From Malacoraja senta (lineage: Eukaryota): DNA of 64,000 bases. A program made the translations under genes and the position numbers. Numbering within the stretch: position 1 is the first letter of the stretch; the number at the start of each line of letters is the position of its first letter. The stretch is taken from the NCBI GenBank assembly GCA_038087875.1, contig CM075992.1, positions 12,092,001 to 12,156,000 on the forward strand, read 5' to 3'. The notes below the pieces were generated by a model. It had not been told where the DNA came from, ran no database searches, and saw only the letters and a list, made by a program, of their open reading frames with translations. This document shows positions 15,833 through 56,482 of this stretch, piece after piece.

Positions 15833-16358
15833 TGGCGTTCCGGCGGTGGCGACCGAGGACACTGGTGTCGACCTGAATCCGGAGGCTCGGTCGCGGGCCC
15901 GGTGGACGACATCGTCGGGAGTGCGCAGGTCACAGGTTGGTGACCTGTTTTTCTGGGGCTCACGCAACTACAGCTGCGTTCGCTGGACTGGAGGGCGGCA
16001 GCTTCGGCAGCTTCGACCACCCCGGGCCGCGGAGTTTGAGCCGGCCCGTCGCGGAGCACGGATTCGGCCGCTGGACTGGCTTACCGTCGCCCGGCGGGGC
16101 CACAGCATCAGAAGCCTGGATCGCCTCAGCGCAGAGGGAGAAGAAAGCGGGAAGAGACAGAGACTTTAAGACTTTTGCCTCCATCACAGTGAGGAGGTGC
16201 CTGGTGAACTCACTGTGGTGGATGTTAATTTGTGTTTATTGTGTGTTTTGTCATTTATTATTATATGTATGACTGCAGGCAACGAAATTTCGTTCAGACC
16301 GAAAGGTCTGAATGAACAAATAAAGGAATCTCTCTCTAAAAAAAATCTCTCTCTCTCT
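15833..16358 (+). mobile_element. GC-rich non-autonomous retroelement with Rex-like stem-loop tail
   Basis: TSD ctaatc 15827-15832 and 16359-16364; hairpin ccatcacagtgag...ctcactgtggtgg; tail aatttcgttcagaccgaaaggtctgaatgaacaAATAAA + (TC)n. Confidence 0.8.
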
Positions 16359-17776
16359 CTAATCGCCCCTTGCCCATCCAAATGCCTGTATATCCTATCC
16401 CTCAGAATACTCTCCAGTAACTAACCAATTACAGATGTTAAGCTCACCGGCCTATAGTTCCCAACATTTTCCCTGCAGCCCTTCTTGAAAAGAGGTAAAA
16501 CATTTTCCACCCTCCAGTCTTCCGGCACCTCTCCTGTATTTAAGGATGACTCAAAAAATTTCAACCAGGGCTCCTGCAATTTCCTCTCTAGTTTACCACA
16601 ATGTCCTCAGATATATCAGATCAGGCCCTGGAGATTTATCTATCCTCGAACACGACGGTACCTTCAGTACTTCTTCAACAGTAATCCTGACTGCTCTCAA
16701 GGCACTTCTAGTGACTGCTCCAATTTCCTAGGTCCTACTGTCTTTCTCCTCGGAAATACAGAGGAGAAATACTCATTGAGGACCTTGCCCATCTCCTGTG
16801 GCTCCACACAGAGGTGACCGCTTTGATTCCTGAGAGGTCCCACTCTCTCCCCTCCAGGGATGCACTTGATCCCAGCTGCATATACATGCCCCATGCATCC
16901 TTCTTGTTTTTGACTAATGTCTCAATTTCCCTCGTCAGCCAAGCTTTCTTATGTTTGCCTGCTTTGTCCTTCACTCTAACGGGGACATACACATCCTGAG
17001 CTTTCTTCAGTACACGTTTAAAAACATTCCACTTGGCTGATGTTCCTTTCCCATCTAATAACCTGCTCCAGTTAACTTGAGCGAGACATTCTCTCATAGC
17101 CTCAAATTGGCCTTACCCCAGTTGATCATTTAAACACGTGACCCTCTCCGTCCCTATCCATAACTATCTTAAACCTAATCAAACTTTGGTCACTGGTCCC
17201 AAAAGGCACCTCCACTCCACCTAACCCTAACCCTTCATTAACTTCCCCTTCCCAATTTCCCAATATTAGATCCAGCATTGCCCTCTCACATGTAGGGGCC
17301 TCCACATACTGCTTAAGAAAACTCCTGAACAGTTTTGAGGAATTGCACGCCATCTGAACCCTTCACGCTATGATTTTCCCAGTCTATATTAGGAAAGTTG
17401 AAATCCCCTCCTACAACCTTACTTGACCTGCAGATGTCTGCAATCTCCCGGCACATTTGTTCTTCTAATTCCTGTTGACTATTCATGGTCTGTAGTACAC
17501 CCCCAACAAGGTGATCATCCCTTCCTTGTTCCTCAGCTCCACCTGTATAGCCTCACAACATGAACCGTCAATAATGTCACCTCTGAACACAGCCGTGACA
17601 TCCTCCTTAATCAACAATGCAATCTCCCCTCCTCTTTTCTCCTCACCCCTGTCTCTCCTGAAGCTCCTGTACCCCGGAACATTGAGCTGCCAGTCCTTCC
17701 CCTCCCTTAACCAGGTTTCAGTCATGGCTACAACGTCCCAGTCGCTCGTACCTATCCATGCCCTAAGCTCATCTGC

Positions 17777-18745
17777 TAACCAGCAGCCGTCCGTTCATTT
17801 CACTTTTTAATTTAGTTTTTAGGTTTTTTCCTGTCTATGTCTGTTGGGGAATTTTGACTTTTAATGTAGGGGGGTTAGGGGGGAAACTATCTCTAGGTCC
17901 CTACCTGGTCGGTGAGGCAGCTTTTTCTCCGGGCTTCCCCGTCGACCCGTCCTTGCGGCCTACCAGCGGGCGTGGAGCGGCGTTTCCTGGCGGGGACTGC
18001 CCAGCACCTTCAGCTTCGGTGGTGGCACAGCGCTGGAGCGCTATCGCGGAGCGGAGCGGGCGATGCCTTGCCTGTGTCGCCGCGCTGGATTGACGCGCTC
18101 GAGCTCCGGTGAGCTGCGACCGCCGAGCTCAACACCTCCGGGCTGCGGGACTGCGGAGCGACCAGCTGCGGGCGGCGCCGCCGACTCCAACATTGGGAGC
18201 CTCTGAGCTCCAAATCGGCGCGGCCTTGTCGGCTTCAGGTGCCACGGACTCCGGTAGGAGATCGGCCGTTCCAGCCGTCCCAGCCGCTGCGAGGACTCTC
18301 CTGACGCCGGGGCAACAACACCCGGCGAGAACGGCCAGGAACATCGGGCCTCCGTAGAGGCAACTGTGGAGGCCTCAATAGGCCTGACTTTGGGTGAACT
18401 GGGGTTGGGGACTGGACATTGTGCCTTCCCCCACAAGTGGCAATCATTGTGGGGGGATGATTTTGTGTGTAATGTGTAGTGTCTATGTTAGTCTTTGTCC
18501 AAGATGGCGGTCGGAAGGGAAAGTGGACGCTGGCGCGCTTTAGCAGCCGCTGATCTCTCTTCCATATTGTGTTTTTGATTTTTGTTTTGGGATTTAATTC
18601 TATCTTTAATTTGTGTACTGGTGATGTCTTTGCTATTTATTTCATTCCGCTTACATGTTTCTACACTATTTGTTAAACTTTGTAAGGTGTCCTTGAGACT
18701 TTGTGAAAGGCACTCATAAATAAAATCTATTATTATTATTATTAT
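17777..18745 (+). mobile_element. GC-rich non-autonomous retroelement with L2-like tail
   Basis: Interrupts CR1; body homologous to 55740-56450 (minus); tail tgtaaggtgtccttgag..gaaaggcactcataaataaaatc(TAT)n. Confidence 0.8.
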
Positions 18746-19404
18746 TACCCGTCAGGACCCTTGCAATAAGATACGTTGCAGTTTAAACCAACCTTCCTTC
18801 CTCGCTCTCCTGCCGATTCTGCCCACTAACCTTTCCCACACCATCCTCCATACCAACTTCTAGCCTCTCAGTGTCATGTCCTGCACGAGATCCCACCCAC
18901 CTGCCAATCGAGATTAAACCCTCCCGTGTAGCATTAGCAAACCTTCCCGCTGGGATGTTGGTTACGTTTAGGTGCAACCCGTCCCCTTTATTAGATGCAA
19001 CCCATCCCCTTTATGCAACCCTGCCCCGGAAGAAATCCCAATTATCCAGAATCCCTGCCCCTTGCACCAACTCCTCAGCCACACATTCATTTCACCTGTC
19101 TTCTTATTCTTACCTTCACTAGCTCGAGGTACTGGAGGCAATCCTGAGATCACTACCCTGCAGGCACTGCTTTTCAGTCTTCCACCCTATTCCGTAAATT
19201 CTTGTTGCAGAACCTCCTTCCTCTTCCGACCTCTATCATTTGTGCCAACATGCACAACAACATCCAGCTGCTACCCCTCACTCTTGAGGATGTGGTGCAG
19301 CTACTCCGAGACGTCCTGGACCCTAGCACCAGGGAGGTAACACACCATTCTGGAGTCTCTGCTGCTGCAGAATCCAAACATAATTCAGCATCTTATTTCA
19401 TCTG

Positions 19405-19700
19405 CGCCACAGTGGTGCAGCACCAGAGACACGGGTTCGATCCTGACTATGGGTGCAGTCTGTTTGGGGTTTGTACGTTCTCCCCGTGACCACGAGGGCT
19501 TACTCCGAGTTTCGGTTTCCTCCCACACTACAAAGCCGTACAGGTTTGCAGGTTAATTGTCTTGGGTTTGTATACTTGGTATAAGTGTAAAGTGTCGCTA
19601 GTATGTGTAGGATAGTATTAATGTGCGGGCATCGCTGGTCGGCGCAGACTCGGTGGGCCGAAGTGCCTGTTTCCATGCTGTATCTCTAAACAAAACTAAA
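19405..19700 (+). mobile_element. HE1-type SINE
   Basis: B box ggttcgatcc, V-domain, CR1-like tail. Confidence 0.85.
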
Positions 19701-23455: not shown

Positions 23456-23739
23456 TCTATTATCACTGGCTCATGGGACTAGTGCAGATGAGGCAAGTTG
23501 GTTGGAATATGCTATTGGGCCGAAGGACCTGTTTCCATATTGTATGACTCTAACTCCATGTTGGAGAGCTCTCTGCCATAGAAGAGAATTCAAAAAAGTA
23601 TTCAACATAGGGAATCTCTTCAATCTACTGAGGAAGTAAAGACAATGATGAGTTTTCTTTGTGATGCAGCAATACACTGGGCCCAGGACAGGCCTTCACA
23701 GATACACACGTCCAGGAACCTGAAGCTGTTGACTCTTTG

Positions 23740-23893
23740 TGTAGGAAAGAACTGCAGATGCTGGTTTAAATCGAAGGTAGACACAAAATGCTGGAGTAAA
23801 TCAGCGGGACAGGCAGCATCTCTGGAGAGAAGAAATAGGTGATGTTTTTGTGTATATCTTCGGTTCAAATCAGCATCTGCAGTTCCTTCCTAC
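23740..23893. mobile_element. Hybrid mini Penelope fold-back element
   Basis: Left flank gctgttgactctttg equals TSD of 47433-47649; right flank acacagaagatgag equals TSD of 21009-21121. Confidence 0.8.
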
Positions 23894-24482
23894 ACACAGA
23901 AGATGAGGTTGGTTACGTGACTCAACTTCATCTCAACTGGAAGGATTGCTGGGGTCCTGGGTTGATGTGAGGAAGAGCTACAGGGTCAGGTGTTATGGAC
24001 GACAGATGGCGCAATGGGCTAAGTGTTCGGCTGGCAACCGGAAGGTAGCCGGTTCGAATCCCGCTTGGAGTGCATACTGTCGTTGTGTCCTTGGGCAAGA
24101 CACTTCACCCACCTTTGCCTGCGTGGAATGTGTGTGAATGTGTGTGAATGTGTGTGAGTGATTGGTGGTGGTCGGAGGGGCCGTAGGCGCAGATTAGCAG
24201 CCACGCTTCCATCAGTCTGCCCCAGGGCAGCTGTGGCTACAGAAGTAGCTCACCACCACCGAGTGTGACTGAGGAGTGAATGAATAATGCGATGTAAAGC
24301 GCCTTGAGTATTAGAAAGGCGCTAAATAGAGGGACTTCCGGTGGCGCTATGGAGGCTTGAGTCCAGTGCCAACTAGCTCCGTGCCGAAGAAACTAAAAAC
24401 GGGAGAAAATCGGGTCTTACCTGCAGCGATCGCGATCTGAACGGCTGCCTGCGTGACGTCATCAGGCGCGCTACTTTACGGT

Positions 24483-25526
24483 ATGTCGTTACAACGTACC
24501 CCCACCCGTGTGACACAAAAAAAAGCCATTAAAGGGAAACTGCAGATGGAAGAGGAAGGCCCTACAGAGGCCTCGGCCTCAGTTACAACGATGCCCCAGG
24601 AAGACCCTCCGAAGAAAACAAAACAGAAAAAGTCTGAAATGGAGGATCTTAAAACTTTTCTCGTTGCCGAATTGAAAACCTTTGGAGAGAATTTTGGAGA
24701 GAAATTTAAAGAGGATCTTTACTCTTTTAAGGTAGATTTTAAAGCAGAAATGCTTTCTACCGTTCAACAAATACTGGAAATCTGGAAAAGGACGACGGAG
24801 GAAGAAGTCAAGGATCAGATGGAAGCGCTGGAAACCAGGCTCGTTTCGGTGGAAGCGAACGTCAATATGGATGTGGCCCCCATTCATCACGAACTTGATC
24901 AACATAGAACAGCGAAAACCGAACTTGAGAAATGGGCGGCGACAAGTGCGGAAACTGTAATTCGCCTCCTTACTGAAAACCAACGCCTCTCCGATATGGT
25001 GATCAAATTAAGTGATAAATGTACCGATTTGGAGGGACGTCAAAGACATAAGAACCTAAGAATTGTAGGGGTGAAAGAAGGAAGTGAGAAGGAAATGGGC
25101 TCTCGGGACTTTGTGGCAGACCTATTACAAAAAGCCTTAAAATTGGATCACAAACCTTCACTCGGTCGAGCTCATAGAGCGCAGCGACGTCGTACACAAG
25201 ATGATGCCCATCCAAGACAAATCATCGTAAAGGTGCAACTGGATCATGAATTTGACGATATAATGAAGAAAATTGTTCGAGGCGGACAGCTCCTTTTTGA
25301 AGGTGTGAGATTCAGTATTTACCGAGATTATCCGGCAGAAGTCTTCAAGAAAAGAGCGCTGTTCACTGAGACAAAAAGAATACTGAAGAATGTACCTGGT
25401 TTGAGATACGGCCTGCTTTATCCCGCAAGACTAAGAGTCACCTACAAGTCCAAGGAGCAATTTTTTACAGACCACGAAAAAGCACTGGAATACGCCAAAG
25501 AAATCGGGAACACGACCGTAGACTGA
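24483..25526 (+). CDS. L1 ORF1p (coiled coil, RRM, CTD), uninterrupted
   Basis: Open 347-codon frame from ATG 24483; DLEGRQR..NLRIVGVKEG, RAHR, IYRDY, LLYPARLRV motifs. Confidence 0.92.
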   Translation: MSLQRTPTRVTQKKAIKGKLQMEEEGPTEASASVTTMPQEDPPKKTKQKKSEMEDLKTFLVAELKTFGENFGEKFKEDLYSFKVDFKAEMLSTVQQILEIWKRTTEEEVKDQMEALETRLVSVEANVNMDVAPIHHELDQHRTAKTELEKWAATSAETVIRLLTENQRLSDMVIKLSDKCTDLEGRQRHKNLRIVGVKEGSEKEMGSRDFVADLLQKALKLDHKPSLGRAHRAQRRRTQDDAHPRQIIVKVQLDHEFDDIMKKIVRGGQLLFEGVRFSIYRDYPAEVFKKRALFTETKRILKNVPGLRYGLLYPARLRVTYKSKEQFFTDHEKALEYAKEIGNTTVD

Positions 25527-26533
25527 AGAATTTACTTTACTCCTTAGGAGTCAAGGACTAACAGGACCGCCAGATCTAAAAGGACCTTTAAAGTTCTTTT
25601 AAGAGCTTTAAGGACATTCGAAAACCGAAATGGACGGAGGACATTGGAGAAAACCGTGATCTTTGTATTTTTTTTTTTTTTTTACTTTTTTTTTTTTACT
25701 AATCATTATTAATATCTGTATATTCATATCTAACTATATATGTAACAACTAATACTTATTAAATATCCATATTACCATTAAAATTATTAACATTAACATT
25801 TCTCATAAAAATTTAATACTGTATATGATTGATAACAATGATTAATAATTAATAGTCTTTGATTAACGTAGAAATGAATTACATACTTATATTATATAAG
25901 AGGATATGCAAGAGGTAAATAAGCCTACGTCATAATAAAACTTGACGGTGTTCCTCTTTATTTTTCAATTTAAAATTAAATTTATAGATTTAGCGAAGAA
26001 ATTAATATGATATGTAGAGAATAATAACGTTGTGAATTTTTGCTATTCCTGAACTTTTCTGCAGGGATACGTGCTTATGTATGTATGCACATGGGTATAT
26101 ATACATATATATGTATGTATATTGTGTGTGTGTATGTATGGGTATGTATATAAGTTTGTTACTCCCAAAGAAGTTATTTGAATGTTAGAAATAATCTTTT
26201 TTCTTCTTCGGGCACGGAGCTGGGAATTTTTTTTTCTTACAAAGGCTACGGAAGTCTTTAGAATTCTAGCCACGTTAGTGTGGCTATCACTAACTACACT
26301 AATTGTAGATGTAGTTCTTTTTCTTTCACCCTTTACTAATCAATTCTATCACTTTTTTCACTTTAAATATTTTGATAACTTAATGTTTGAATGGAAAAAC
26401 AAGTCTAATACAAGGAGATGTGTTCGGAAGAGCGATGTATATGATTTTAAATTCATCTATCTGAAGTTCGGTAGCAGGGTCAGGTTTTATGTGTTGTACC
26501 TTCTGCTCGGCTATAGACCACCTTAGAAACAAT

Positions 26534-29500
26534 ATGCAAGATGTTAATATGACAAGAGGGGGTCAGGGAATAACATTTTGTAGTTGGAATGTCAAGGGAA
26601 TCAATGAACCAATTAAGAGAGGTAAAGTTTTGGCACATCTAAACTTAATCAAAACAGATATAATATTTCTCCAAGAAACACACCTTAAAAAGGAATCTCA
26701 ACATAGACTTAAAGCTAAGTGGATCGCTGAATCATATCATTCCTCTTTTTCCCATAAGTCCAGAGGAGTTGCAGTATTAATTCGTAAAGGAATACCTTTT
26801 ACGAACTCTTCAACAATAGTGGATATTGATGGTAGATATATTATATTAGTTGGAGAGTTAAATGGAGAAAAAGTGATTCTTCTTAATGTATATGGGCCTA
26901 ACTTTGATAACCCCATGTTTTTTAATAAAACATTTAATAAAATTCCTGAATTTACACAATATAAATTAATAATTGGAGGAGACTTCAATTGCACATTAGA
27001 TTCATACTTAGATAGATCATCAAGGCAAAAAAAAGTAAAATCTCAATCAAGTGTATTTCTAAATTCATTTATTAATACCACTAATATTAAGGATGTCTGG
27101 AGAATAGAAAACCCAACTGGACGGGAATATTCATTTTACTCACCAGTACATAAAACATACTCAAGAATAGATTATTTTTTAGTTGACTCTATGTTTATCC
27201 CATTTATTTATAATTCAACATATCATAACATTATAATCTCAGATCACGCACCTGTAACATTCATGATTAAATTAAATGGAATGTCCGAGAAACAAACATA
27301 TTGGAGATTTAACCCACAAATTTCGAACGAAAGGTCATGCCAGGAATATATTATTAAACAGATTCAAATATTTTTTGAGGTAAATGACAACCCTGACACA
27401 CCTACTTCTCTTATGTGAGAAACGTTTAAAGCGTTTGTTCGAGGTACATTAATTTCCGCTCAAGCATTTTATAATAAAGAGAACAGGATTAAGCAACAAA
27501 CATTGGAAAGTGAAATCAAGCAACTAGATATAGAAAATGCGAGAATGCCATCTATTTTAAAACATAATAAAATTGCTGTATTGAAATATAAATTAAATAA
27601 AATGTATTCAGAACAAGTAATAAAACTTTATCAAAAAACCAAACAATTACATTTTGAATTTGGAGACAAACCACAAAAACTATTAGCACGTCAGTTACGA
27701 AAAATGGAAGGGGAAAAAGTAATTCATAAAATTAGAACAGAGACAGGAAAATTATTAAAAATGCCCAAGGACATAAATGATAGATTTCTCCAATACTATC
27801 ATAACCTTTATTCAACTAAAACCGTAGGACAATCAGAAGGAATAGCAGATTTTTTACTAAAATGTAATTTAAAAGGTTTAGATTCGAACGATAGAGAATT
27901 ATTAGAAAGGGAGATTACCATAAAAGATATTGAGGAGTCTATTGGCTCTTTAAAAAATGGTAAAGCAGTAGGACCAGATGGTTTAGGCTCCGAATTTTAT
28001 ATAAAAATTTATGATTTGCTTTGCCCACGTTTACAAAGACTGTATGAGTATATCTATACTCAACAGAAACTTCCAGACACTTTAAATGAATCTATAATAA
28101 CACTTATTCCTAAAGCTGATAAAGATCCGGAAGACCCGGGATCATATAGAGCAATTGCACTTTTAAATACAGATCAGAAAATATTAACTAAAATACTAGC
28201 GCATAGATTAAGTACAGTGATGAATAAATTAATACACCCTGACCAAACAGGCTTTATTCAGAAACGGTACTCATATTATAATCTAAGAAGATTATTTAAT
28301 ATTATATATTCCAAGAGAATTATTAATGAAGATCTAGCAATAATCTCACTTGACGCTGAAAAAGCATTTGATCAGGTCGAATGGTCTTATTTATTTTCGG
28401 TGATGGAAAATATGCAGCTAGGGGAGAAATTCTGTACATGGATAAAACTATTATATACAAATCCCACGGCTAGAATATTTACAAACCAAAGGTTGTCATC
28501 TAAATTTAGTCTATCTAGAGGTTGTAGACAAGGATGCCCGTTATCTCCATTATTATTTGCGCTTGCTATTGAGCCACTTGCAGAAAGAGTCAGGGGGCAT
28601 CCGGAAATACACGGATATAACACAAAGGACACAGTGAATAAAATTTCTCTATACGCAGATGATGTATTAATTTACATTACAAAACCAGAAATTAGTATTC
28701 CAAACTTATTAAAGCTAATAACCCAATTTGGTTCACTTTCAGGATACAGAATAAATTGGAATAAAAGTGAAATTATGCCAATAAGGGAACATAACAAACA
28801 GATAATACAACAATTTCCATTTAAAATAGTAAAGGAAAAAATTTAAATATCTAGGTATTTATGTAACTAAGATATATACATCATTATTTAAAGCAAATTT
28901 TCCACCATTACTGAATAAACTACATAAAAATATTCAATACTGGAAAACACTTCCTATCTCAATGGTTGGCAAAATTAATGCCATAAAAATCATTTTTTTA
29001 CCGCAAATATTATACCTTTTTCAGACAATTCCGATATATCTGGCAAAATTTTTTTTTTTTAAACTGGACTCTATTGTTAATGATTTTATCTGGGATTATA
29101 AGAATCATAGGATAAACAAAAGACATTTGTGTAAATCAAAAATAAATGGAGACTTGGTTTTACCCAACTTTTTGTTTTATTTCTGGGCAGTTAATATTAA
29201 AAATATGAATTTCTGGTTGGAAGAAATAGATCATCAACCAGACTGGTTAAAAATGGAAAAGGAAGATTGTTTACCTTTTGATATCGGTTCGATATTATTT
29301 GCTACGTCTAAATTAAACAAAAAAATTTATAGGGAAAACCCTATAATATTTAGTGCTATTTATCACTTTTTCTTCCAATTGTGAATAACCCTTTGTTTAA
29401 GCCTTCATGGTTGGACGGGGGTTTTACACAATGGAAGAATTATGGAATTAAAAATATGGGACAACTTTACAAAGAAGGCACTTTTCTGACATTTCAGGAG

Positions 29501-30307
29501 TTGCAACAGACTTATGGACTTCGAGGAAATGACTATTTCAGATATCTTCAACTTAGAGATTATGTAAAATCGAATACTCAAAATTTTCGAATTAGAAATT
29601 CAGAAATTCTTGATGAATGTTGGAACAAACATCCTAATACAGAAAAATTAATATCTTATATATATAATATCTTATTAGACAGTGACATTCCATCGACGGA
29701 CTTACACAGACAAACATGGGAAAAAGAATTAAATCAAATAATAACGAAAGATACTTGGGAAGAAAGTTTGCAACACATACATCAATGTTCATTAAACGCC
29801 AGACATTCTCTAATACAATTTAAAGTAATACATAGGTTACATTATTCAAAAACAAAACTACATAAAATTTTTCAACATATCTCACCTATATGTGATAAAT
29901 GTCAACATTTAGAAGCTACCTTATCTCATATGTTTGCAAACTGTATAAAAATTAAAAAATTCTGGGTAAATATTTTCAGTATAATATCTAAAGTAACCAG
30001 CACACAATTGGACCCAGATCCAAAATTAATAATACTTGGAATATTAGAATTAAATCAAACATTTAGAACAACACAAAGAAACTTTATTGATTATAGTTTA
30101 ATAACAGGAAAAAAATTAATTCTAAAATTTTGGAAAGGCCCTACGACCCCCACAATCAAAATGTGGATTATAGAAATGACGGAAACCTTAAACGTGGAAA
30201 GAATCAGATTCTCCCTGTTGGACAAACAGGAATTATTCGTTGGAACATGGTCTCCTTTTATTGATTACTTAAAGGGTCAGAACAGTTCAGCACAGGAACC
30301 TGACTAG
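26534..30307 (+). pseudogene. L1 ORF2p (APE endonuclease, RT, Cys-rich tail), disrupted
   Basis: SWNVKG, LQETH, GGDFN, SRIDY, SDH; RQGCPLSPLLF, YADD; CDKC..HMF.NC; TGA at 27416-27418, frameshift near 28840, apparent deletion near 29360. Confidence 0.94.
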
Positions 30308-30904
30308 CACCCGGGCTAAAGAATGGATGAAATGCTATACTTAGAAATGTACGAATATATCTTGAATGAAGTTTTCTATTTTAATACATTTTTCCATTCT
30401 TCTTTAACTATCTTTTTTCTTTTTTTTTTAATTTTTGTTTTGTTTTGTTTTTCTTCTCTTTCTTTTCTTTCTTTACTTCATCTTTCTCTTTAGTTCTATT
30501 TAGTTTTTTAAAAAAAGGCAAAAGGTATTGGAGACAATGTAATAATAATTGACAATATTATCAAGTTAAAAATGTAAGACTGTAATGATGTAACTAGGTT
30601 GTGTACTTATCTCCAATAAAAAAATATTTAAAATAAAAAAGAAAAAAAAAAGAAAGGCGCTATATAAATCCCATCCATTATTATTATTATTATTATCTCC
30701 AGCGGTTACAGGGGAAGGTACCTGGGAAGCGGGTGATTTGGGTGGGAAGGGATGAGTTATCCAAGGAATAGAAGAGGGAGCTGTCTCTGTGGAAGGCAGA
30801 AAGGGGTGGAGATGGGAAGATGTAACTACATGGGATCACATTGGAGGTGGTGGAAATGTCAGAGAAATATGGATGTGGAAGCTGGTGGGATGAAAGGAGT
30901 GGAC

Positions 30905-34017: not shown

Positions 34018-34019
34018 TC

Positions 34020-37000: not shown

Positions 37001-38260
37001 TACAGTGGCGAGAGATACATTATCGCCACACTGGGGAGGAATGTTCTTGCATGTCTTTCCTCCATTCTGCCTCATCAGTCGGGTCTTGCAATAAATCCAG
37101 CAAGATACCGCTTCAGGCTTTTCGAACTGCCTGACTGGCATACGCAGCCATGGTTCCCGCTAATGTTGGGAATAATATAGAACCTTATATGCTTATTCAA
37201 AACATAAAACGTTGCTGGTTCAACCTGTGACTCGGGAAACCAGCCTCTGCATGATACATCAAATCATTGACTTGCAGACTCTGAGACGACTATTCCTGCA
37301 GCTCGGGTTGTCAGACCGATCCATGTCGTGCTCACTGCAGAATGCAGGGAAAGCACCAAAAGGCAGTACATTTCCACTTCAGCAGATGGGAAACGTTTTT
37401 GTTTGAATACACATGTTACATACAGTACAGCACGGATAACTGACGTCTTAGAGGTCATTTTCAAATGGGTCTTTGACAATAATTAAGTTACAGTACCATT
37501 AACTGTGCCAACGTGCCTTCTGATCATATTTGCTGCAGCAAGTGGGACCCACACTGTCGGGTCTCACCCTCTGATATCCAGAATTATATAGGATATCTTT
37601 AACACCAGTTGTCCCAGTTACACGGAAGTACGGGACATTGACGTTATGTTAACATTACTTCACCAGGGGGCTCCCCCTACATCCTTATCTTCATCCAGCT
37701 CCCATAAGGTAGTAATCCTCATGGCACTGGCCTCAGTGCAATGGGTCCAGTCACTACATAAATTGCGACTGGACAGGATGGTTACATCTGCTAATAACAT
37801 AATATTTTATGTTTTTGATTTAATCAACCAGAAGTAACCAGGGGCATTAGGTCTCAAACTAGTTTCATGGCATACCCTATGGACCTTCGGTAATGTGTGG
37901 TCACATATTAACAACAATACGTCTAGGTCACCTAAAGCCTCAAAGGCTCCAAACTAAGCAATGTTTGTTAGTTACAAAAACATTCATAAGAAGTATTAGT
38001 TCTACCATCTCCAGGTGGTTAAAATGGGGTTTTGGGTAATGCATGAGTCGATACTAATATTTTCAACACTCACTCCACCAGGGCTGCTACCACATCAGCT
38101 CCAAGGATTATGTACGTTCCACTGGACCACATCGTAGCAGCTGCAGGATGGTCAAACGAACATACTTTACCAACATTTTATATAGCCCATTGCCAAACCG
38201 GGGGTATTTGCCAACTCCATTTTAGATTCTGTTTTATAGTTTTCCCCTGGATGAAGGGGT
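34020..38260 (+). mobile_element. DIRS1-type tyrosine-recombinase retrotransposon, degraded, 3' terminus lost
   Basis: 5' terminus attttacttcggagtcacgtgagtgactacgtgaag; SIDLKDA.YSVP and YLDD (RT), TDAS (RNase H), DMFTSRL and FPPF (methyltransferase-like), HSTRAA and AAGWS (YR). Confidence 0.9.
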
Positions 38261-38765
38261 CACTATCACTAACTTCTCTTGTCATCCACAGTTGCCTCCT
38301 ACGCCCTTTAGAATCTTTCTTCCTTTTTGGAATGAAATGATCCTGCGTCTTCCGGATTATGCCCAGAAATTCCTGCCATTGCTGTTCCACCATCATTCCT
38401 GCTAGGATCCCTTTCCAGTCTACTTTGGACAGCTCCCGTCTCATGCCTTCATAGTCCCCTTTGTTCAACTGCATCACTGACACTTCCGATTTAACGTTCT
38501 CCTTCTCAAATTGCAGATTAAAACTAATCATATTATGATCACTACCTCCAAGTGGTTCCTTTACCTCGAGTTCTCTTATCATATCTGGTTCATTGGACAA
38601 CACTAAATCCAGAATTGCCTTTTCTCTGGTCGGCTCCATTACAAGCTGCTCTAAGAATCCATCTCGGAGGCATTCTACAAACTCTCTTTCTTGGGGTCCT
38701 GATCCAACCTGATTTTCCCGGTCTACCTGCATATTGAAATCCCCCATCACCACAGTGACATTACC
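38261..38765 (-). mobile_element. CR1 endonuclease fragment (duplicated copy)
   Basis: MGDFN, ILDLVL, SDHN motifs. Confidence 0.9.
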
Positions 38766-41700: not shown

Positions 41701-42569
41701 AACGTTTTTGTTTGAATACACATGTTACATACAGTACAGCACGGATAACTGACGTCTTAGAGGTCATTTTCAAATGGGTCTTTGACAATAATTAAGTTAC
41801 AGTACCATTAACTGTGCCAACGTGCCTTCTGATCATATTTGCTGCAGCAAGTGGGACCCACACTGTCGGGTCTCACCCTCTGATATCCAGAATTATATAG
41901 GATATCTTTAACACCAGTTGTCCCAGTTACACGGAAGTACGGGACATTGACGTTATGTTAACATTACTTCACCAGGGGGCTCCCCCTACATCCTTATCTT
42001 CATCCAGCTCCCATAAGGTAGTAATCCTCATGGCACTGGCCTCAGTGCAATGGGTCCAGTCACTACATAAATTGCGACTGGACAGGATGGTTACATCTGC
42101 TAATAACATAATATTTTATGTTTTTGATTTAATCAACCAGAAGTAACCAGGGGCATTAGGTCTCAAACTAGTTTCATGGCATACCCTATGGACCTTCGGT
42201 AATGTGTGGTCACATATTAACAACAATACGTCTAGGTCACCTAAAGCCTCAAAGGCTCCAAACTAAGCAATGTTTGTTAGTTACAAAAACATTCATAAGA
42301 AGTATTAGTTCTACCATCTCCAGGTGGTTAAAATGGGGTTTTGGGTAATGCATGAGTCGATACTAATATTTTCAACACTCACTCCACCAGGGCTGCTACC
42401 ACATCAGCTCCAAGGATTATGTACGTTCCACTGGACCACATCGTAGCAGCTGCAGGATGGTCAAACGAACATACTTTACCAACATTTTATATAGCCCATT
42501 GCCAAACCGGGGGTATTTGCCAACTCCATTTTAGATTCTGTTTTATAGTTTTCCCCTGGATGAAGGGGT
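38766..42569 (+). mobile_element. DIRS1-type element, duplicated copy lacking both termini
   Basis: Copy of 34459-38260. Confidence 0.9.
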
Positions 42570-43415
42570 CACTATCACTAACTTCTCTTGTCATCCACAG
42601 TTGCCTCCTACGCCCTTTAGAATCTTTCTTCCTTTTTGGAATGAAATGATCCTGCGTCTTCCGGATTATGCCCAGAAATTCCTGCCATTGCTGTTCCACC
42701 ATCATTCCTGCTAGGATCCCTTTCCAGTCTACTTTGGACAGCTCCCGTCTCATGCCTTCATAGTCCCCTTTGTTCAACTGCATCACTGACACTTCCGATT
42801 TAACGTTCTCCTTCTCAAATTGCAGATTAAAACTAATCATATTATGATCACTACCTCCAAGTGGTTCCTTTACCTCGAGTTCTCTTATCATATCTGGTTC
42901 ATTGGACAACACTAAATCCAGAATTGCCTTTTCTCTGGTCGGCTCCATTACAAGCTGCTCTAAGAATCCATCTCGGAGGCATTCTACAAACTCTCTTTCT
43001 TGGGGTCCTGATCCAACCTGATTTTCCCGGTCTACCTGCATATTGAAATCCCCCATCACCACAGTGACATTACCTTTGTTACATGCCAGTTTTAACTCCT
43101 GCTGCAACTTACACCCTATATCCGGGATACTATTTGTGGGTCTGTAGATAACACCAATTAGTGTCTTCCTCCTTTACAATTCCTCAACTCAATCCACAGT
43201 GACTCTACCTCGTCAGTCCCTATGTCTTCTCTCGCAAGGGACTGAATTACATCGCTCACCAGCCGAGCTACCCCCCCTACTCTGCCCACCTGCCTGTCCT
43301 TTCTATAGGATGTATATCCCTGAATATTAAGTTCCCAGGCCCGATCCTCCTGCAGCCACGTCTCAGTAATCCCCACAATATCATATCTACCAACCTCTGA
43401 GCCTCAAGCTCATCC
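42570..43415 (-). mobile_element. CR1 endonuclease fragment
   Basis: ITETWL, MGDFN, SDHN motifs. Confidence 0.9.
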
Positions 43416-44279: not shown

Positions 44280-46100
44280 GCATCAGGAAATCATGGTACA
44301 GCTTCATAGGACTTTGGTGAGGCCACATTTGGAATATTGTGTGCATTTCTAGTCGCCCAGGTAGGATGTGGAGGCTTTGGAAAGGGGGCAGAGGAAGTTT
44401 ACCAGATTGTTGCCAGGATTAGGGGGTATTAGCTACATGGAGATGTTGGACAGACTTGGATTGTTTTCTCTGGATGCCGAGGCTGCAGGAAAACCTGATG
44501 GATGTACATAAAATGATGAGAGGCATAGATAGGGCAGGCAGTCAGAACCTTTGTCCCAGGATGAAAGAAATCAAATACTAGAGAGCATAGCTTTAAGGTG
44601 AAAGGGCAAAATTTAAAGCAGATCCACTGGGCAACTTTTGTTTTACACAGAGGGTGGTTAGTGCCTGGATTGCACTGCCAGGGATGGTGGTTGAGGCAGA
44701 TACAATAATAGCATTTATGAGGCTTTTGACTAGAGATATGGATATGCAGGGAATGGAGGGATATGGATTATTCACAGATAGATAAGGGATAGTCTTGGCA
44801 TCGTGTTCAGCACAGACATTGTGGAACGAAGGGCCTGTCCTTGTGCTGCACTGATCTGTGTTTTATGAACACTTGGGAGCTTTGAAACTGAATGGACAGT
44901 TTGCATTACAGTCAAGGAAGGGCTAAACATCCTATGACGTATGAAGGTAGATAAATCTCCTGGTCCTAATCAGATATATACAAGGATACAGTGGGATGCT
45001 GAAGATTAAATTGCAAGAGCCCTGGCTAAGATATATAAATCATCATTAGACAAGGGTGAGGTGCCAGAAACCTTGAAGGTGGCTAATGTTGTGCCACTAT
45101 TTAAAAAGGGCTGCAAAGAAAAACCTTGGAACTATAGAGCAATGAAGATAACGTCTGTGGTAGGTAAGATACAGGAGAGGGTTTTGAGGGATAATAATAA
45201 TAATAATAATAATACATTTTATTTATATAGCGCTTTTCAGGACTCAAAGTCGCTTTAGATAAGATGCATTTGGAAAGGTGGGGGTTGTTTTTGATTGATT
45301 TTTTAAATGAAATAACCAAGGTTGAGGGCAGAGTTGTATCAATAGTCTCTATGGACTTTAGCAGGGCCCAGTGTAAGGTTCTCCATCGTAGGCTTCATTG
45401 GAAGGTTCGATAACGTGGGATCCAGGGAGAGCCAGCTAACTGGATATAGAATGTGTAAGAAGGAACTGCAGATGCTGGTTTAAACTGAAGATAGACACAA
45501 AAAGCTGGAGTAACTCAGCGGGTCAGACAGCATTTCTGGAGAAAAGGAATAGGTGATGTTTTGGGTGACGTTTCGGGTCGAGACCCTTTTTCACACTCGA
45601 CCCGAAACGTCACCTATTCCTTTTCTCCAGAGATGCTGTTTGACCCGCTAAGTTACTCCAGCCTTTTGAGTCTAACTGGATATAGAATTGGTTTAATGGA
45701 TGTGAGCAGGGAGTGTGTGTCTCACGGATCGATGCTGGGCCCATTCTGTTTGTAGTTTATATTAACAATTTGTATGAGATGATTAGTAATGAAAACAAGG
45801 CATGATTAGTAAGTTTGAAGATGCCATTAAAATAGGTGGTATCATATAGTAAATAAGGTTGTCAATAATCAGCTGGGTAAGTGGGCCAAGGAGTTTAATT
45901 AGGATGAACACATAGTCTTTTATCTAGAATAGGGGAATCAAGAACCAGATGACATAGGTTTAAGGTGAGAAGGGAAACATTTAATAGGAACCTGAGGGCA
46001 ATTTTTTCCACACAAAGGATGGCGGGTATATGGAACAAGCTGCCAAAGTAGGTTGAGACAGGAAACATAACTACAGAGTTGAGGCAGGAAACATAACTAC
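44280..46100 (+). mobile_element. Cluster of old CR1 fragments (with L2-type (TAA)n tail remnant at 45191-45256)
   Basis: LVRPHLEYC-like, ANVVPLFKKG, FFHTQR-like remnants. Confidence 0.75.
45453..45671. mobile_element. Mini Penelope fold-back element
   Basis: Inverted pLTR arms; exact 17-bp TSD ctaactggatatagaat 45436-45452 and 45672-45688. Confidence 0.9.
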
Positions 46101-47220: not shown

Positions 47221-47432
47221 CACTGGTTCATGGGACTAGTGCAGATGAAGCAAGTTGGTTGGAATATGCTATTGGGCCGAAGGCCCCGTTTCCATTTACA
47301 TAGGGAATCTCTTCAATCTACTGAGGAAGTAAAGACAATGATGAGTTTTCTTTGTGATGCATCAATACACTGGGCCCAGGACAGGCCTTCACAGATACAC
47401 ATGTCCAGGAACCTGAAGCTGTTGACTCTTTG

Positions 47433-47649
47433 TGTAGGAAAGAACTGCAGATGCTGGTTTAAATCGAAGGTGGACATAAAATGCTGAAGTAACTCAGCGA
47501 GACAGGCAGCATCTCTGGCGAGAAGGAATAAGTGAAGTTTCGGATCGAGACACTTCAGTCCGAAGAACGGTCTTGAACCGAAATGTCACCTATCCCTTCT
47601 CTCCAGAGATGTTGCCTGTCTCGCTGAGTTGCTCCAGCATTTTGTGTCT
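47433..47649. mobile_element. Mini Penelope fold-back element
   Basis: Inverted pLTR arms, degenerate hammerhead motif; exact 15-bp TSD gctgttgactctttg 47418-47432 and 47650-47664. Confidence 0.9.
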
Positions 47650-48180: not shown

Positions 48181-48712
48181 AGTAGAAATAAGTGAGTAGA
48201 GCAGGGGACTGAGCTCACCGCCCTGAGGTGCCCTGTGTTGATGGCCATCGAGGAGCAAGTGTTGTTGCAATCTGGACTGATTGCAGTCTGGTGATGAGGA
48301 AGTCGTGGATCAATATAAACGACAAACCTTACAGAACGTCATCCAGCACGGAAACAGACCAACGGAAGTCACAGTGAAAATAGTGAGTGCATTGATGCTG
48401 TCTCCAGAATTCAACATAATGGAGTTGCCACTTTGGAGGGAACCAAACAGAATCCATGCTACTTTAGAAAAGGAGCAAGGGAGACGATAGGAAACTACAG
48501 GCAGTTAGTCTAACTTGAGTGGTCAGTGAAATGTATCTTCGTACCAATGCATTATCCCTTATATTCCTTATCATTTATCCACACACTGTGAATGGCTCAC
48601 AGTGAACAGATTCAATTGTAATCATGTATTGTCTTTCCGCTGGCTGGTTAACATGTAACAAAAGCTTCTCACTGTACCTCGGTACACGTGACAATAAACT
48701 AAACTGAAACTG

Positions 48713-52100: not shown

Positions 52101-52329
52101 CCCCACACAAATACATGCTGACCAAACCTAACCATTCCTGCCTTTCCAAACATTTTCTGTCCCTCAGAACTCCCTCCAATATGTTCCCAACCACTGACAC
52201 AAGGTTCACTCACCTGTACTTATCTGGCTTACCCCTTCTGCCTTAAAACAAAATCTTCTTGCGGTCAAAGTAACATAGTTTGCCTTCCTGACTGCCCCCT
52301 GCACCAGCACATTAACTTCCAGTGGTTTG

Positions 52330-53270: not shown

Positions 53271-53529
53271 GTATATTGTAAATATAGTCTATCAGGGATG
53301 GAGCAAGAGCTTTCACCAACAGCCCCAACTTGTTCTCAAGGAGGTCACACGTGGCCTCTCTCCGGCTCAGGTGGAGGTGAGTTGGGGTGGGATAGATAGA
53401 TTGAGAGGCAGATATGAGGGGTGCAGTGGAGATGGATGGGGTAAGGTCACTGAACAATCATCAAGGCAAAGAATATAGCTACAAATAATAAAGCCCTTCC
53501 CCAGCCACAACTCCCTGCAGCACAAGAAC

Positions 53530-53765
53530 AAAGACCAGAAGGCTCGAGGACCCCGACCGCAGGAGAACAAAGAAGAGAAGAGATTGAACTTTGTTTTTGC
53601 CTTCCATCACAGTGAGGAATGTGGAGGAGTCACTGTGGTGGATGTTTATGTTAAAATGTATTTTGTGTGTCTCGGTGCTTTTTATTGGTCTGACTGTATG
53701 GTAAATCAAATTGCTTGTATGTTGCAAAACATACTTGGCTAATAAAGTCTGATAATGATTATGAA
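53530..53765 (+). mobile_element. 5'-truncated non-autonomous retroelement with Rex-like tail
   Basis: Same gccttccatcacagtgagg...tcactgtggtggatg hairpin as 16177-16224; tail aaattgcttgtatg..catacttggctAATAAA. Confidence 0.75.
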
Positions 53766-53804
53766 GCCCAACAGTGTCAAGCTGGGTCCACACAGAATTG
53801 TGTG

Positions 53805-54960
53805 TAAGTAAGTAAGTTTATTGGCCAAGTATTCACTTACAAGGAATTTGCCTTGGTGCTCCGCCCACAAGTTACAACATGACATACATGACAGTTACGA
53901 ATGACTCAGAAAACACTAAACATTAATAATAATAAAACATTAATGATAAAACACCATTGATCAAGCTGTGAACCAACAAAATACCAGATCAAAGGGAGGC
54001 TACAGATTTTTGGCTGTTGAGTAGAGCAACTACTCGTGGATAAAAACAGTTTTTATGTCTGGCTGTGGCAGCTTTGACAGTCCAGAGTCGCCTTCCCGAG
54101 GGAATTGATTCAAAGAGTTTGTGTCCAGGTTGAGAGGGGTCAGAGATGATCTTGCCCGCTTGCTTCCTGGCCCTTGCAGTGTGCAGTTCATTTATGGAGG
54201 GAAGGTTGCAGCCAAAAATCTTCTCTGCTGATCGGACGATTCGCTGCAGCCTCCAGGTGTCATGCTTGGTGGCTGAGCCAAACCAGACCATGATGGAGAA
54301 AGTGAGAACAGACTCTATGAAGGCCGTGTAGAATTGAACCATCATTGCCTGTGGCAGATTGTGCTCCCTCAGCTGCCGCTGGAAGTACATCCTCTGTTGT
54401 GCCTTTTTGACTGTGGAGTCGATGGTAGCCCCCCACTTAAGGTCCTTGGAGATGATGGTTCGCAGGAACTTAAAAGACTCCACAGATGTGCCTGTGGTGT
54501 TGTTGATGGTGAGTGGGGTGAGGGGAGGGGGTGCTCTCCTAAAGTCTACAATCACTTCCACTGTCTTAAGAGCATTGAGCTCTAGGTTGTTGCGACGGCA
54601 CCAGGACACCAGCTGTGACACTTCCTGTCTGTAGGCAGATTCCTCCCCATCCTGGATTAGTCCAATCAGGGTTTGTGTCGTCCCGCAAACTTGAGAAGCT
54701 TGACAGAGGTGTCTGTGGAGGTGCAGTCATTGGTGTAGAGAGAGTAGAGGAGAGGAGAGAGTACGCAGCCTTGCGGTGCTCCTATGCTGAGTGTTTGCGG
54801 GTCCGAGATGTGCTTTCCCAGCCTCACATGCTGCTTCCTGTCTGTCAGGAAGTTGGTGATCCACTTACAAAGGGGTTCAGGCACAGTCAACTCAGAAGGT
54901 TTGAAGTGTAGTAGCTCTGGCACAATGGTGTTGAATGCAGAGCTAAAATCAACAAACAGA
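53805..54960 (-). mobile_element. Rex1/Babar LINE 3' part
   Basis: IGAPQGCVLSPLLYSLYTNDC, KFA, LELNALKT, KKAQQRMYF motifs; tail aaattccttgtaagtgaatacttggccAATAAA(CTTA)n. Confidence 0.92.
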
Positions 54961-55152
54961 AGTAAGGTAGCAATGTACCCATGACGGGAGTAGTCAATTC
55001 CTGCCGAGCCTCACACGTGGCAGGGAGGCTGTCTGAGCAGTAATGTTACTGGTGTGGGAACATACCTGTACACGTGTGTGTTGCATGTGTGTTCAAAGTG
55101 TAAACATTTTACAGTGTCATTTGGAAACAACATTTTTTTACTCTTTCCCCAG

Positions 55153-55212
55153 TTGTTGGTTGGATCTAAAGTCGGGATTTCTCTGGGCTTTCCTGGCTGT
55201 GTGATTATTCTG
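55153..55212 (+). pseudogene. ADGRE-like exon, ECL2/TM5, frameshifted
   Basis: ctctttccccag acceptor, gtaagt donor; reads (Y)CWLDLKSGFLWAFL then CVIIL in another frame; conserved GPV is missing (60 nt instead of 67), giving TGA at 55202-55204. Confidence 0.88.
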
Positions 55213-55611
55213 GTAAGTTTGGAAAAATATGAAACAGAGAATGTCTGTTTAATTCAGGAAAATGTGAGCTGATGCGTTTCGGAACCACTAATGAGGATAG
55301 GACATCAACCATGAATGGCAGGTCGGAGGAACAGAGGGGCCTTGGAGCACGGCACAGATCTGGTAAGGTGACAGCGACTGAACTTGCTGTCAGGTTAACC
55401 TGTACTGTAATCTTGGGTATTAATATTTAGCAGTATCGGATTGGATGAAAGTTCTCCAAAGAGCATTGGTAAAGATTATGTCTTTATCACTGGTTTTTGT
55501 GATAAATCTTTAGACTGTCCATAAATATTTGTAGATTCACAATTCATATGAGAAGATTTGAAGTCATCCACTCAGGGCTGATGGAACACCACGGTAATAT
55601 CTACATCAAAT

Positions 55612-56482
55612 GTTCAAAGGTTTCAAAGGTTCATTTATTGTCACATGCAACTACTTGGTGCAGTGAAATTCAAGTTGCCATTGCAGCACATTAATAAGAA
55701 TACCACATAACATTATAAAGGAATTTAACAATAAACATAAAAACATCCCCCCACAAAGGTTTCCACGGTGAGGGAAGGCACAAAATCCAATCCCCATCCC
55801 CTTGTCCATCCATAGTCGGGCCTATTGAGGCCTCCGCAGTTGCCACTACGCCGGCCCAATATTTCAGGCCCTTCTCGCCGGGTGATGGTGCTCCAGCGTC
55901 AGGAGAACCCACTCAGCGGCTTGGGACACCTGGAACGGCCGCTACCTTACCGGAGACCGTGGCTTCTGAAGCCGTCAGGCCGCGCTGGACGGAGCTCCAC
56001 CACTGGCGATCTCGCCGAGAGATCCCAGGCTCCCGATGTTAAAGTCAGCGCCGCCACCCGCGGCTGGCCGCTCCACTGCACTGACCCGCAGCTCCACCGA
56101 TGTTCACCTGCGGTCTCAGCATTTCGGAGCTCCAGCGCGGCGACCCGGGCAAGGCAATGCCCGCTCCGCTCCGCGATAGCGCTCCAGCGCTGTGCCGCCA
56201 CCAAAGCCGTGGTTCTGGCCGGTCCCCTCAGGAAACGCCGCTCCAGACCCGTTGGTAGTCCGCGAGGACGGGTCGAAGATTCTGCCCGGAGGAAAAGCCG
56301 CCTCTCCGACCAGGTAGAGACTAGGAAAAGCAGTTTCCCCTTCCCCCCCCCCACCCCCAACATAAAAAAAAAGTATAGACCTCCAAACAAAACACTTTTT
56401 AACACACTAAAAATAAATGAAAGAAGTGAAAAGACAGACAGCTGCAGGCTGGGCAGCCATACCCAACTGGGTGGTGCCCCCG
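55612..56482 (-). mobile_element. GC-rich non-autonomous retroelement with Rex-like tail, apparently full length
   Basis: Head atggctgcc..cagctgtctgtc, T-rich and G run, GC body homologous to 17790-18460; tail aatttcactgcacc..tgcatgtgacAATAAA(tgaaccttt)n. Confidence 0.8.

What the first reader, a model, noticed from the sequence alone, without database searches (positions are those of the whole stretch)
15833..56482. Modular GC-rich non-autonomous retroelement family that swaps LINE tails
Seen: 17777-18745 (+) and 55612-56482 (-) share a roughly 650-bp GC-rich body (e.g. ggcacagcgctggagcgctatcgcggagcggagcgggc), but one ends in an L2-type tail with (TAT)n and the other in a Rex1/Babar-type aatttca..gtgacAATAAA tail. 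15833-16358 and 53530-53765 share a tgcc(t)tcc-hairpin-gatg module, also present in the first two, yet have two more distinct tails. 6731-7210 shares the head layout. I see no tRNA A/B boxes; the head (ggcgcc..atggctgcc) looks like a LINE 5' UTR. Established: SINEs borrow LINE 3' tails for mobilisation. Inference: a non-tRNA, probably Pol II, parasite family that repeatedly changes partner LINE. This is the best candidate here for an undescribed system.
Basis: partly seen in the sequence, partly recalled or inferred. Interest (0 to 1): 0.7.

Follow-up and report, generated by a model that had tools for sequence, protein, structure and literature searches.

The report
Parasitic retroelements that switch LINE helpers
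These are short, non-coding jumping elements in a skate- or ray-like genome that begin like a LINE retrotransposon rather than a tRNA, and one abundant form appears to have changed its helper enzyme from the Rex1 to the L2 lineage by fusing to a second small element.

Summary
A (17778-18744 +) and E (55612-56490 -) share 700 bp at 80% identity; C (6726-7211 -) is a shortened relative of E. Their heads match Rex1/L2 LINE 5' ends and no Pol III boxes were found. E, C, B and D end in Rex1-type tails of three subgroups; A ends in an L2-type tail. A is not a bare tail swap: the body is fused to a second 245-bp element with its own LINE-type head and the L2 tail. A inserted as one unit. In Logan contigs the body is very deep in four organisms, while the body-to-L2-module junction is deep in only one of the four, so the fusion looks multi-copy and lineage-specific, not chance nesting. 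B and D share only a 45-nt hairpin with A/E, so 'one family that repeatedly swaps' is overstated: one Rex1-to-L2 switch is supported, plus a probable Rex1-to-Rex1 exchange in B/D. Best reading: non-autonomous, LINE-headed (probably Pol II) elements of Rex1 type. Tail exchange is known for Pol III SINEs; I found no paper on this kind. Dfam and Repbase could not be checked. Verdict: new variant of a known kind.

The parts
17778..18744 (+). Element A: 5'-truncated composite (head remnant, GC body, hairpin, spacer, inner element, L2-type tail), one insertion into a CR1 LINE, no clear TSD
   Evidence: Loose ends behind 17776 in 68, 63 and 79 contigs of runs X2, X3, X5 continue straight into A's right flank, i.e. 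the empty CR1 site; TSD search
17778..17895 (+). A: remnant of head, T-rich tract and G-run; lacks the first ~35 nt seen in E
   Evidence: A_head vs E_head z 8.8, 0 of 300 shuffles
17896..18421 (+). A: GC-rich, CpG-rich non-coding body (GC 0.68, CpG o/e 0.93 vs 0.44 for the window)
   Evidence: no Pfam or Rfam match
18422..18459 (+). A: TGCC-hairpin-GATG module
18460..18498 (+). A: T/G-rich spacer, the junction between body and inner element
   Evidence: summed contig depth 97k-168k in X2 but 0.2k-2.2k at 18482/18484 in X3, X4, X5; bridged by X5 record 32
18499..18680 (+). A: inner element, second LINE-type head starting CCAAGATGGCG plus T-rich tract
   Evidence: aligns to the 5' end of Rex-type locus L016, z 8.8; the same 11-mer opens labelled Rex1 and L2 consensuses
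18681..18744 (+). A: L2-type tail and (TAT)n
   Evidence: vs tail of locus L067 z 7.2 and at most 2.4 vs the 20 Rex tails; vs window tail 45212-45265 z 8.0
55612..56490 (-). Element E: head (56490-56322), GC body (56321-55781), hairpin (55780-55744), T-rich tract, Rex1-type tail with short repeat; no TSD found
   Evidence: tail vs L022 z 5.0, L020 and L024 z 4.2
6726..7211 (-). Element C: full Rex1-type head, shortened body with three 72-bp repeats, truncated E-type tail; possible 5-bp TSD
   Evidence: top hit of a Rex 5'-end weight matrix among 127,500 positions; TRF
15833..16358 (+). Element B: different GC body, purine tract, hairpin module (16176-16224), Rex1-type tail with perfect hairpin; 6-bp TSD CTAATC (15827-15832, 16359-16364) in a CR1
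   Evidence: tail vs L013/L015 z 7.5/7.8
53542..53762 (+). Element D: 5'-truncated relative of B (purine tract + hairpin 53598-53644) with another Rex1-subgroup tail; possible 4-bp TSD
   Evidence: B vs D module z 15.2, upstream z 6.2; tail blastn to L002 81% over 62 nt, E 1.4e-8
53800..54950 (-). 3' fragment of an autonomous-type Rex1/Babar LINE (RVT_1 + PF09004) whose tail matches D's; candidate helper class
   Evidence: tail vs D z 7.0; 452 homologs, mostly 56-67% identical among the 120 listed, the named ones from teleosts
45191..45260 (-). Short stand-alone L2-type tail with (TAT)n in a CR1; shows the same L2 machinery acted in this genome

Best explanation
A, E and C belong to a high-copy family of non-autonomous non-LTR retroelements built as: LINE 5' end (Rex1/L2 type, the presumed internal Pol II promoter) + CpG-rich non-coding body of unknown origin + hairpin + LINE 3' tail. 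The RNA is copied by target-primed reverse transcription by whichever LINE protein recognises its 3' stem-loop. E and C use Rex1 tails. A's subfamily arose when a body-bearing element was joined (template switch, or insertion followed by read-through) to a second 245-bp element with its own LINE-type head and an L2 tail; the fusion was then amplified by L2 in one host lineage. B and D form a sister or separate family that shares only the hairpin module and carries two other Rex1-subgroup tails. Shown: anatomy, head and tail homologies, single-unit insertion of A, absence of Pol III boxes, high contig depth. Inferred: Pol II transcription, the identity of the helper enzymes, the direction Rex1-to-L2, copy numbers, host clade.
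For: Heads: weight matrix from 4 distinct Rex 5' ends ranks C's head first of 127,500 positions, 23.1 bits vs 12.6 next; E head vs C head z 14.2; labelled Rex1 and L2 consensuses open with the 11-mer found at 18499. Tails sort to different LINE groups: D-L001/L002 z 9.2/9.7, B-L013/L015 7.5/7.8, E-L022 5.0, A-L067 7.2. A is one insertion with a truncated 5' end and a (TAT)n end. Contigs laid on A: 9516, 8020, 9834, 5909 in four runs; body bins up to 0.8-2.9 million summed depth against 12-172 for the 32 single pieces listed; in X2 depth stays at 97k or more at all 8 tabulated positions from 18436 to 18509; depth at 18482 over depth at 18441 is 1.48 in X2 and 0.043, 0.002, 0.014 in X3, X4, X5. 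A-type letters at 18187, 18203, 18240, 18259, 18509, 18630, 18665 are the majority in X2 and a minority in the other three. X5 record 32 (18445-18582) bridges the junction and 8 X2 contigs show a second junction form. Strict tail recognition by ORF2 is shown for zebrafish L2 (PMC4176376, passages).
Against: Summed contig depth is no copy number (tool's own warning), no listed X2 piece spans the junction (32 of 33,311 pieces shown), and X2 may be the window's own species or sample. A spacer under 80% alike would also look absent in X3-X5. Only A was laid; E, C, B and D are each seen once, so their body+tail combinations are untested. E has no TSD and an uncertain start. E's head is not among the top 8 matrix hits (longer spacer). 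T-rich tracts alone reach z about 4 in these tests. The L2 label of L067 rests on recalled ORF2 motifs; the tools show only that it is 26-29% identical to Rex proteins and has no hit to the window's CR1. The body has no traced source.
Confidence: 0.62

Rival explanations
1. One reading: all five are one family with a common ancestor that changed partner LINE at least three times.
For: The hairpin module is in A, E, B, D at the same place before a T-rich tract (z 4.5-7.2 between the A/E and B/D groups), with two compensatory pair changes (A-U in B/D vs C-G in A/E; G-C in B/D vs A-U in A; read from the folds). Four tail types occur. B body vs C body z 3.8, 2 of 300 shuffles.
Against: B body vs A and E bodies z 1.3 and 1.0; shared part is about 45 nt plus T-rich DNA; four sequences from two lineages give little covariation power.
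Confidence: 0.15
2. Plain bipartite deletion derivatives: the GC body and hairpin are 5' and 3' parts of ray Rex1 LINEs not sampled here, and B/D are separate derivatives or LINE 3' ends.
For: Heads and tails both match Rex1. Some little-skate Rex1 consensuses have GC-rich 5' regions, and LeuEri_Rex1-15 shows by eye a 20-nt likeness to C's repeat unit (not aligned).
Against: Four body/module 12-mers and one further body 13-mer have 0 hits in the first 400 nt of the supplement's consensuses; no body frame matches 120 Rex proteins or 58 loci at E<0.2; the hairpin is absent from the window's Rex 3' UTR (z at most 0.4) and from 67 of 67 loci. These loci are not from rays, and the consensus 3' ends were cut from view.
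Confidence: 0.15
3. A is a one-off nesting: an L2-tailed short element landed in the tail of a Rex-tailed element at this locus.
For: A does contain two heads, and in three of four runs the junction is nearly absent while both parts are deep.
Against: No Rex tail remnant follows (TAT)n; the CR1 empty site joins both flanks; junction depth in X2 is about 10^5; a diverged bridging contig exists in X5.
Confidence: 0.04
4. Ordinary Pol III SINEs with a decayed tRNA/5S/7SL head.
For: Size and LINE-like tails fit; tail exchange is common in SINE superfamilies (PMC3747384 table; PMC11481361).
Against: No ARAGORN, Rfam or box match in any element, while the control SINE passes; heads match LINE 5' ends.
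Confidence: 0.04

Closest known systems
Bipartite non-autonomous LINEs (RIME, NARTc, Bov-A, RTE-N, Vingi derivatives, R2 SIDEs; Kojima 2018, PMC5786205)
   Same: LINE 5' end plus LINE 3' tail, no ORF, presumed Pol II, helper-dependent.
   Different: That paper lists only RTE, Ingi, Vingi and R2 as sources; here the ends are Rex1/L2 type, a 500-bp body with no LINE match lies between them, and A joins two such units and ends in a tail of another clade.
SINE superfamilies with exchanged tails (CORE-, V-, Deu-, Meta-SINEs; PMC3747384 table; PMC11481361)
   Same: One body found with tails of different LINEs, e.g. CORE-SINE HpaI with RSg-1 and UnaSINE with UnaL2 (that RSg-1 is Rex1-clade is recalled).
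   Different: Those have tRNA or 5S heads and Pol III promoters; none found here.
GC-rich-headed potential SINEs BuceSINE and ManaSINE2 (PMC4844689, figure legend)
   Same: Non-tRNA, GC-rich part, LINE-derived tail.
   Different: Mobilised by an RTE LINE; the GC-rich part is the head there, but here sits behind a LINE-type head.
Elasmobranch HE1/HER1 and elephant-shark SINEX-1_CM (PMC3747384 table; PMC1845163 passages)
   Same: Cartilaginous-fish non-autonomous elements sharing a tail with a LINE.
   Different: tRNA-derived and CR1-partnered; sequences not compared here.

Membership tests
SINE (SINEBase definition, PMC3531059) | Head at least 60% like tRNA, 5S or 7SL over 60 nt / Pol III internal promoter | tested here: not met
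   ARAGORN 0 of 5 elements; Rfam at E<=1, 0 of 8 matches fall in the elements; box scan negative, control positive
SINE (SINEBase definition, PMC3531059) | Under 1 kb, at least 100 interspersed copies | tested here: inconclusive
   Lengths 220-970 bp; thousands of contigs laid on A in each of 4 runs, but loci were not counted
Non-autonomous non-LTR retroelement (TPRT) | 3' tail homologous to a LINE 3' end, ending in a short repeat | tested here: met
Non-autonomous non-LTR retroelement (TPRT) | Discrete insertion with TSD or clean empty site; 5' truncation | tested here: met
   B 6-bp TSD; A empty site; D 4 bp and C 5 bp are short enough to be chance; E none
Non-autonomous non-LTR retroelement (TPRT) | No coding capacity | tested here: met
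   0 Pfam families for 4 of 4 element ORFs; frames not kept between A and E
Bipartite non-autonomous LINE | 5' end derived from a LINE 5' end | tested here: met
   C and A's inner head; E through homology to C; B by eye only; D truncated
Bipartite non-autonomous LINE | Consists only of 5' and 3' parts of one parent LINE | tested here: inconclusive
   Body has no match in 58 loci, 120 proteins or the first 400 nt of the supplement consensuses; the ray parent was not available; A's outer body and tail point to different clades
Bipartite non-autonomous LINE | Pol II transcription from the LINE 5' end | not testable with these tools
   Only contigs were available
Rex1-dependent element (E, C, B, D) | Tail shared with a Rex1 LINE | tested here: met
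   the loci carry RVT_1+PF09004 proteins whose 5' ends match, by eye, consensuses labelled Rex1 in PMC13343379 supplement
L2-dependent element (A) | Tail shared with an L2 LINE | tested here: inconclusive
   Tail matches L067 (z 7.2), a non-Rex, non-CR1 ORF2 end; the L2 name is from recalled motifs
Any family | Trans-mobilisation by the partner LINE | not testable with these tools
   needs a cell assay
Dfam/Repbase entry | Match to a curated consensus | not testable with these tools
   neither library is held

The most novel reading that the evidence does not exclude
An undescribed, very abundant class of Pol II parasites in skates/rays that use a 5' end common to Rex1 and single-ORF L2 LINEs, carry a conserved CpG-island-like body and hairpin, and move between helper clades by module fusion; the first LINE-headed non-autonomous elements from the Rex1/L2 group and the first with a cross-clade helper switch caught as a lineage-specific burst.
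Probability: 0.3. Interest if true: 0.7.

Novelty: new variant of a known kind. Interest (0 to 1): 0.5.

Why it matters
It would extend LINE-headed non-autonomous elements to Rex1 and L2, which Kojima 2018 did not list as sources, and it shows the step that paper proposes for the birth of SINE bodies (tail exchange on a LINE-derived unit) without any Pol III head. The pair E/A is a natural test of strict tail recognition across two LINE clades. A shared Rex1/L2 5' end would explain why a parasite can change helper and stay co-expressed. A CpG-rich family at this depth may also supply many promoter-like islands in batoid genomes and is probably mislabelled in automatic repeat libraries.

Tried and rejected
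No whole genome is held, so no locus counts. A 26-nt body motif: 0 hits in viral and metagenome contigs; B/D hairpin pattern 0 in viral contigs; Rex RT 0 confirmed loci in viral contigs. E vs phages and plasmids: no match. A vs five host-contaminated genomes: only low-complexity hits. No RNA holder listed; not evidence either way. Body as relic of the Rex ORF N-terminus (my idea for B): not supported, no body frame under E 0.2. Hairpin as part of the Rex 3' UTR: not supported. Body as structured RNA: folding z -0.7, -2.3, 0.3, -0.7 for A, E, B, C. Body as coding: 2 weak hits, P0121 and P0122, in 1.84 billion proteins, which read like translations of other copies with the same head-tract-body order; 0 of 7744 candidates; their source names could not be obtained. 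In one search I used 19 of 58 loci, chosen after viewing for having a 3' end, plus L067 and the window Rex; L007 and L017 tails were mis-cut and carry no information, and L005/L006 and L013/L015 are near-duplicates. Other z>=3 cells there: D-L013 3.1, D-L015 3.4, C-L001 4.1, E-L009 4.1, B-L010 4.7, C-L012 3.1, B-L016 3.7, E-L016 3.0, C-L020 3.5, all Rex-to-Rex. Ten literature searches listed no paper on such a family; the library lacks most subscription papers and Repbase Reports. Earlier scan notes: nothing by sequence or place; three unrelated tRNA-SINE notes by words.
Full report
Context. The window is repeat-dense vertebrate DNA: CR1 fragments throughout, L1/Tx1-like and DIRS-like elements, tRNA-headed SINEs and a Rex1-type LINE end. 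No genome is held. The host is probably a skate or ray: by eye the CR1 at about 38300-38560 closely resembles the little-skate consensus LeuEri_CR1-6, and rays have among the highest Rex1 coverage (PMC13343379, passages). This is inference. I call the elements A (17778-18744 +), E (55612-56490 -), C (6726-7211 -), B (15833-16358 +) and D (53542-53762 +).

Observation. A and E align over about 700 bp: 546 identities in 680 pairs; blastn E 2e-117. The body is GC 0.66-0.68 with CpG o/e 0.92-0.93 against 0.44 for the window. C is a real relative of E in head, body and tail (z 14.2, 13.5, 6.7); it has three 72-bp repeats and no hairpin module. B and D are related to each other (module z 15.2, upstream z 6.2) but B's body does not match A or E (z 1.3, 1.0). 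The module occurs at 4 sites in 64 kb and folds as a hairpin in all four (z -4.1, -3.4, -2.2, -1.7 for B, D, A, E), with two compensatory changes between the B/D and A/E types. No element has a tRNA, Rfam or A+B box match, while the SINE at 23999 passes (box consensus recalled).

Tails. The LINE fragment at 53800-54950 (-) encodes RVT_1 and PF09004 and has 452 homologs, the named ones from teleosts. An alignment of it with 19 homologs fetched 51 + 7 loci of host DNA from metagenomes and bins. Comparing five element tails with 21 LINE tails (19 chosen loci, the window Rex, L067; 500 shuffles each): D goes with L001/L002 (z 9.2, 9.7) and the window Rex (6.5); B with L013/L015 (7.5, 7.8); E with L022, L020, L024 (5.0, 4.2, 4.2); A with none of the Rex tails (at most 2.4) but with L067 (7.2). 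L067 is a LINE ORF2 end only 26-29% identical to Rex proteins and without a hit to the window's CR1; I name it L2 from recalled motifs. A stand-alone tail of the same kind lies at 45191-45260 (z 8.0 to A). So there are three Rex1-subgroup tails and one L2-type tail.

Heads. Full-length Rex loci begin with a GGCGCC-N4-ATGGC motif that is also the ORF start. A matrix from four distinct such ends ranks C's head first among 127,500 window positions (23.1 bits, next 12.6). E's head has a longer spacer and is not in the top 8, but aligns to C's. A has lost the first ~35 nt of this head, yet carries a second one: CCAAGATGGCG at 18499, and the stretch behind it aligns to the 5' end of L016 (z 8.8; best of 50 comparisons, where T-rich tracts alone reach about 4). 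In the supplement of PMC13343379 (about 1,000 consensus rows, first 400 nt visible) this 11-mer occurs 18 times, at the start of 12 Rex1, 5 L2 and 1 Crack consensus, including little-skate L2-1, L2-3, Rex1-2 and Rex1-12. The head is thus a LINE 5' end shared by Rex1 and some L2, and cannot be assigned to one clade. Body and module motifs had 0 hits there.

Is the body+L2 form real? I laid contigs of four runs, four coded organisms, on 17690-18830 at 80% likeness. (i) Loose ends behind 17776 in three runs (68, 63, 79 contigs) run into A's right flank, so A entered the CR1 as one unit, with no Rex tail remnant. (ii) 5,909-9,834 contigs per run were laid and body bins reach 0.8-2.9 million summed depth, against 12-172 for the listed single pieces: the body family is very abundant in all four. 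(iii) Across the junction X2 stays at 97k or more at the 8 tabulated positions from 18436 to 18509; depth at 18482 relative to 18441 is 1.48 in X2 but 0.043, 0.002 and 0.014 in X3-X5, although the inner element is deep in all four. (iv) Seven positions in body and inner element where A's letter is the majority in X2 are minority letters in the others. (v) One X5 contig (18445-18582, 18 other letters, 4 gaps) bridges the junction, and 8 X2 contigs show a variant body end before 18486. Read together: two older abundant families, and a fused subfamily amplified in one lineage. Limits: depth is not copy number, only 32 of 33,311 pieces were shown, X2 may be the window's own source, and a more diverged spacer would be missed.

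Mechanism. Most likely the outer LINE-type head drives Pol II transcription, the RNA's 3' stem-loop is bound by a LINE ORF2 protein, and TPRT inserts it; 5' truncation (A, D), repeat tails and B's 6-bp TSD fit. Strict, loop-specific tail recognition is shown for zebrafish L2 (PMC4176376, passages), so a new tail means a new helper. The switch in A came through fusion with a complete small element, not by gain of a bare tail. Rex1-to-L2 is the likelier direction because E and C keep Rex tails and the fusion is the restricted form. The roles of body and hairpin are unknown; my guess is a CpG-island-like promoter extension and an RNA-protein site. All of this paragraph beyond the anatomy is inference.

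Comparison. Tail exchange on a shared body is established for Pol III SINEs (PMC3747384, table passages; PMC11481361, passages). LINE-headed bipartite elements are established, but Kojima 2018 (PMC5786205; read parts 1-4 of 5) lists only RTE, Ingi, Vingi and R2 as sources. GC-rich non-tRNA heads are known in birds (PMC4844689, passages). By SINEBase's definition (PMC3531059, passages) these are not SINEs. PMC6274825, PMC5381603 and PMC1845163 (passages) describe nothing like them. Ten searches listed no paper on such a family; Dfam and Repbase could not be checked, and a family this abundant very likely sits in automatic libraries. The 3' ends of the supplement's consensuses were cut from view and could show the hairpin to be Rex1 3' UTR.

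Verdict. Real, probably undescribed in print, a new variant of known kinds: LINE-headed non-autonomous elements of Rex1 type with one supported cross-clade helper switch. The claim of one family with repeated swaps is only partly borne out. Interest 0.5.

Noticed in passing
window 34457-43074: Tandem duplication of 4.3 kb at 99.95% identity covering most of a DIRS-like element (RT motifs seen) and a CR1 piece; recent duplication or assembly artefact.
   Followed up: no
window 24441-30650 (+): Near-full-length L1/Tx1-like LINE: open 361-aa ORF1 without Pfam match, endonuclease and RT in ORF2 with few breaks; an L2-type tail remnant with (TAT)n sits in its poly(A) at about 30652-30696.
   Followed up: partly
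window 7193-7211 (-) and 56470-56490 (-): The first bases of C, and more weakly E, resemble a CTCF site, and the 11-mer at 18499 resembles a YY1 site (both motifs recalled, not scored).
   Followed up: no
window 15833-15860: B's first 25 nt resemble by eye the 5' end of HypSab_Rex1-6 in the PMC13343379 supplement, so B may be near full length with a Rex1 head.
   Followed up: no
window 6780-6995 (-): C's 72-bp repeat unit resembles by eye about 20 nt in the 5' region of LeuEri_Rex1-15; possible source of part of the body.
   Followed up: no
window 5614-5832, 23734-23900, 45452-45677, 47431-47649: Repeated head-to-head pairs of the same ~110-bp repeat forming long palindromes; they give the weak miRNA-family hits.
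   Followed up: no
window 23999-24200 (+): tRNA-headed SINE with intact A and B boxes; used as positive control.
   Followed up: partly
window 48590-48712 (+) and 1-630 (+): Two further 3' ends with AATAAA and short repeats; the one at 48693 looks like the E/C Rex-type tail.
   Followed up: no
window 57800-58500: The most CpG-rich segment of the window, next to a DIRS-like terminus; not related to the elements by blastn.
   Followed up: no
L052-L058 (G001-G005): Bacterial genome bins in genome contigs carry animal Rex1-type LINE DNA; G001 is 17.8 Mb and looks largely host-derived.
   Followed up: no
PMC13343379 supplement, rows seen: Rex1, several L2 and one Crack consensus open with the same 11-mer, suggesting a 5' promoter motif shared across CR1-group clades.
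   Followed up: partly
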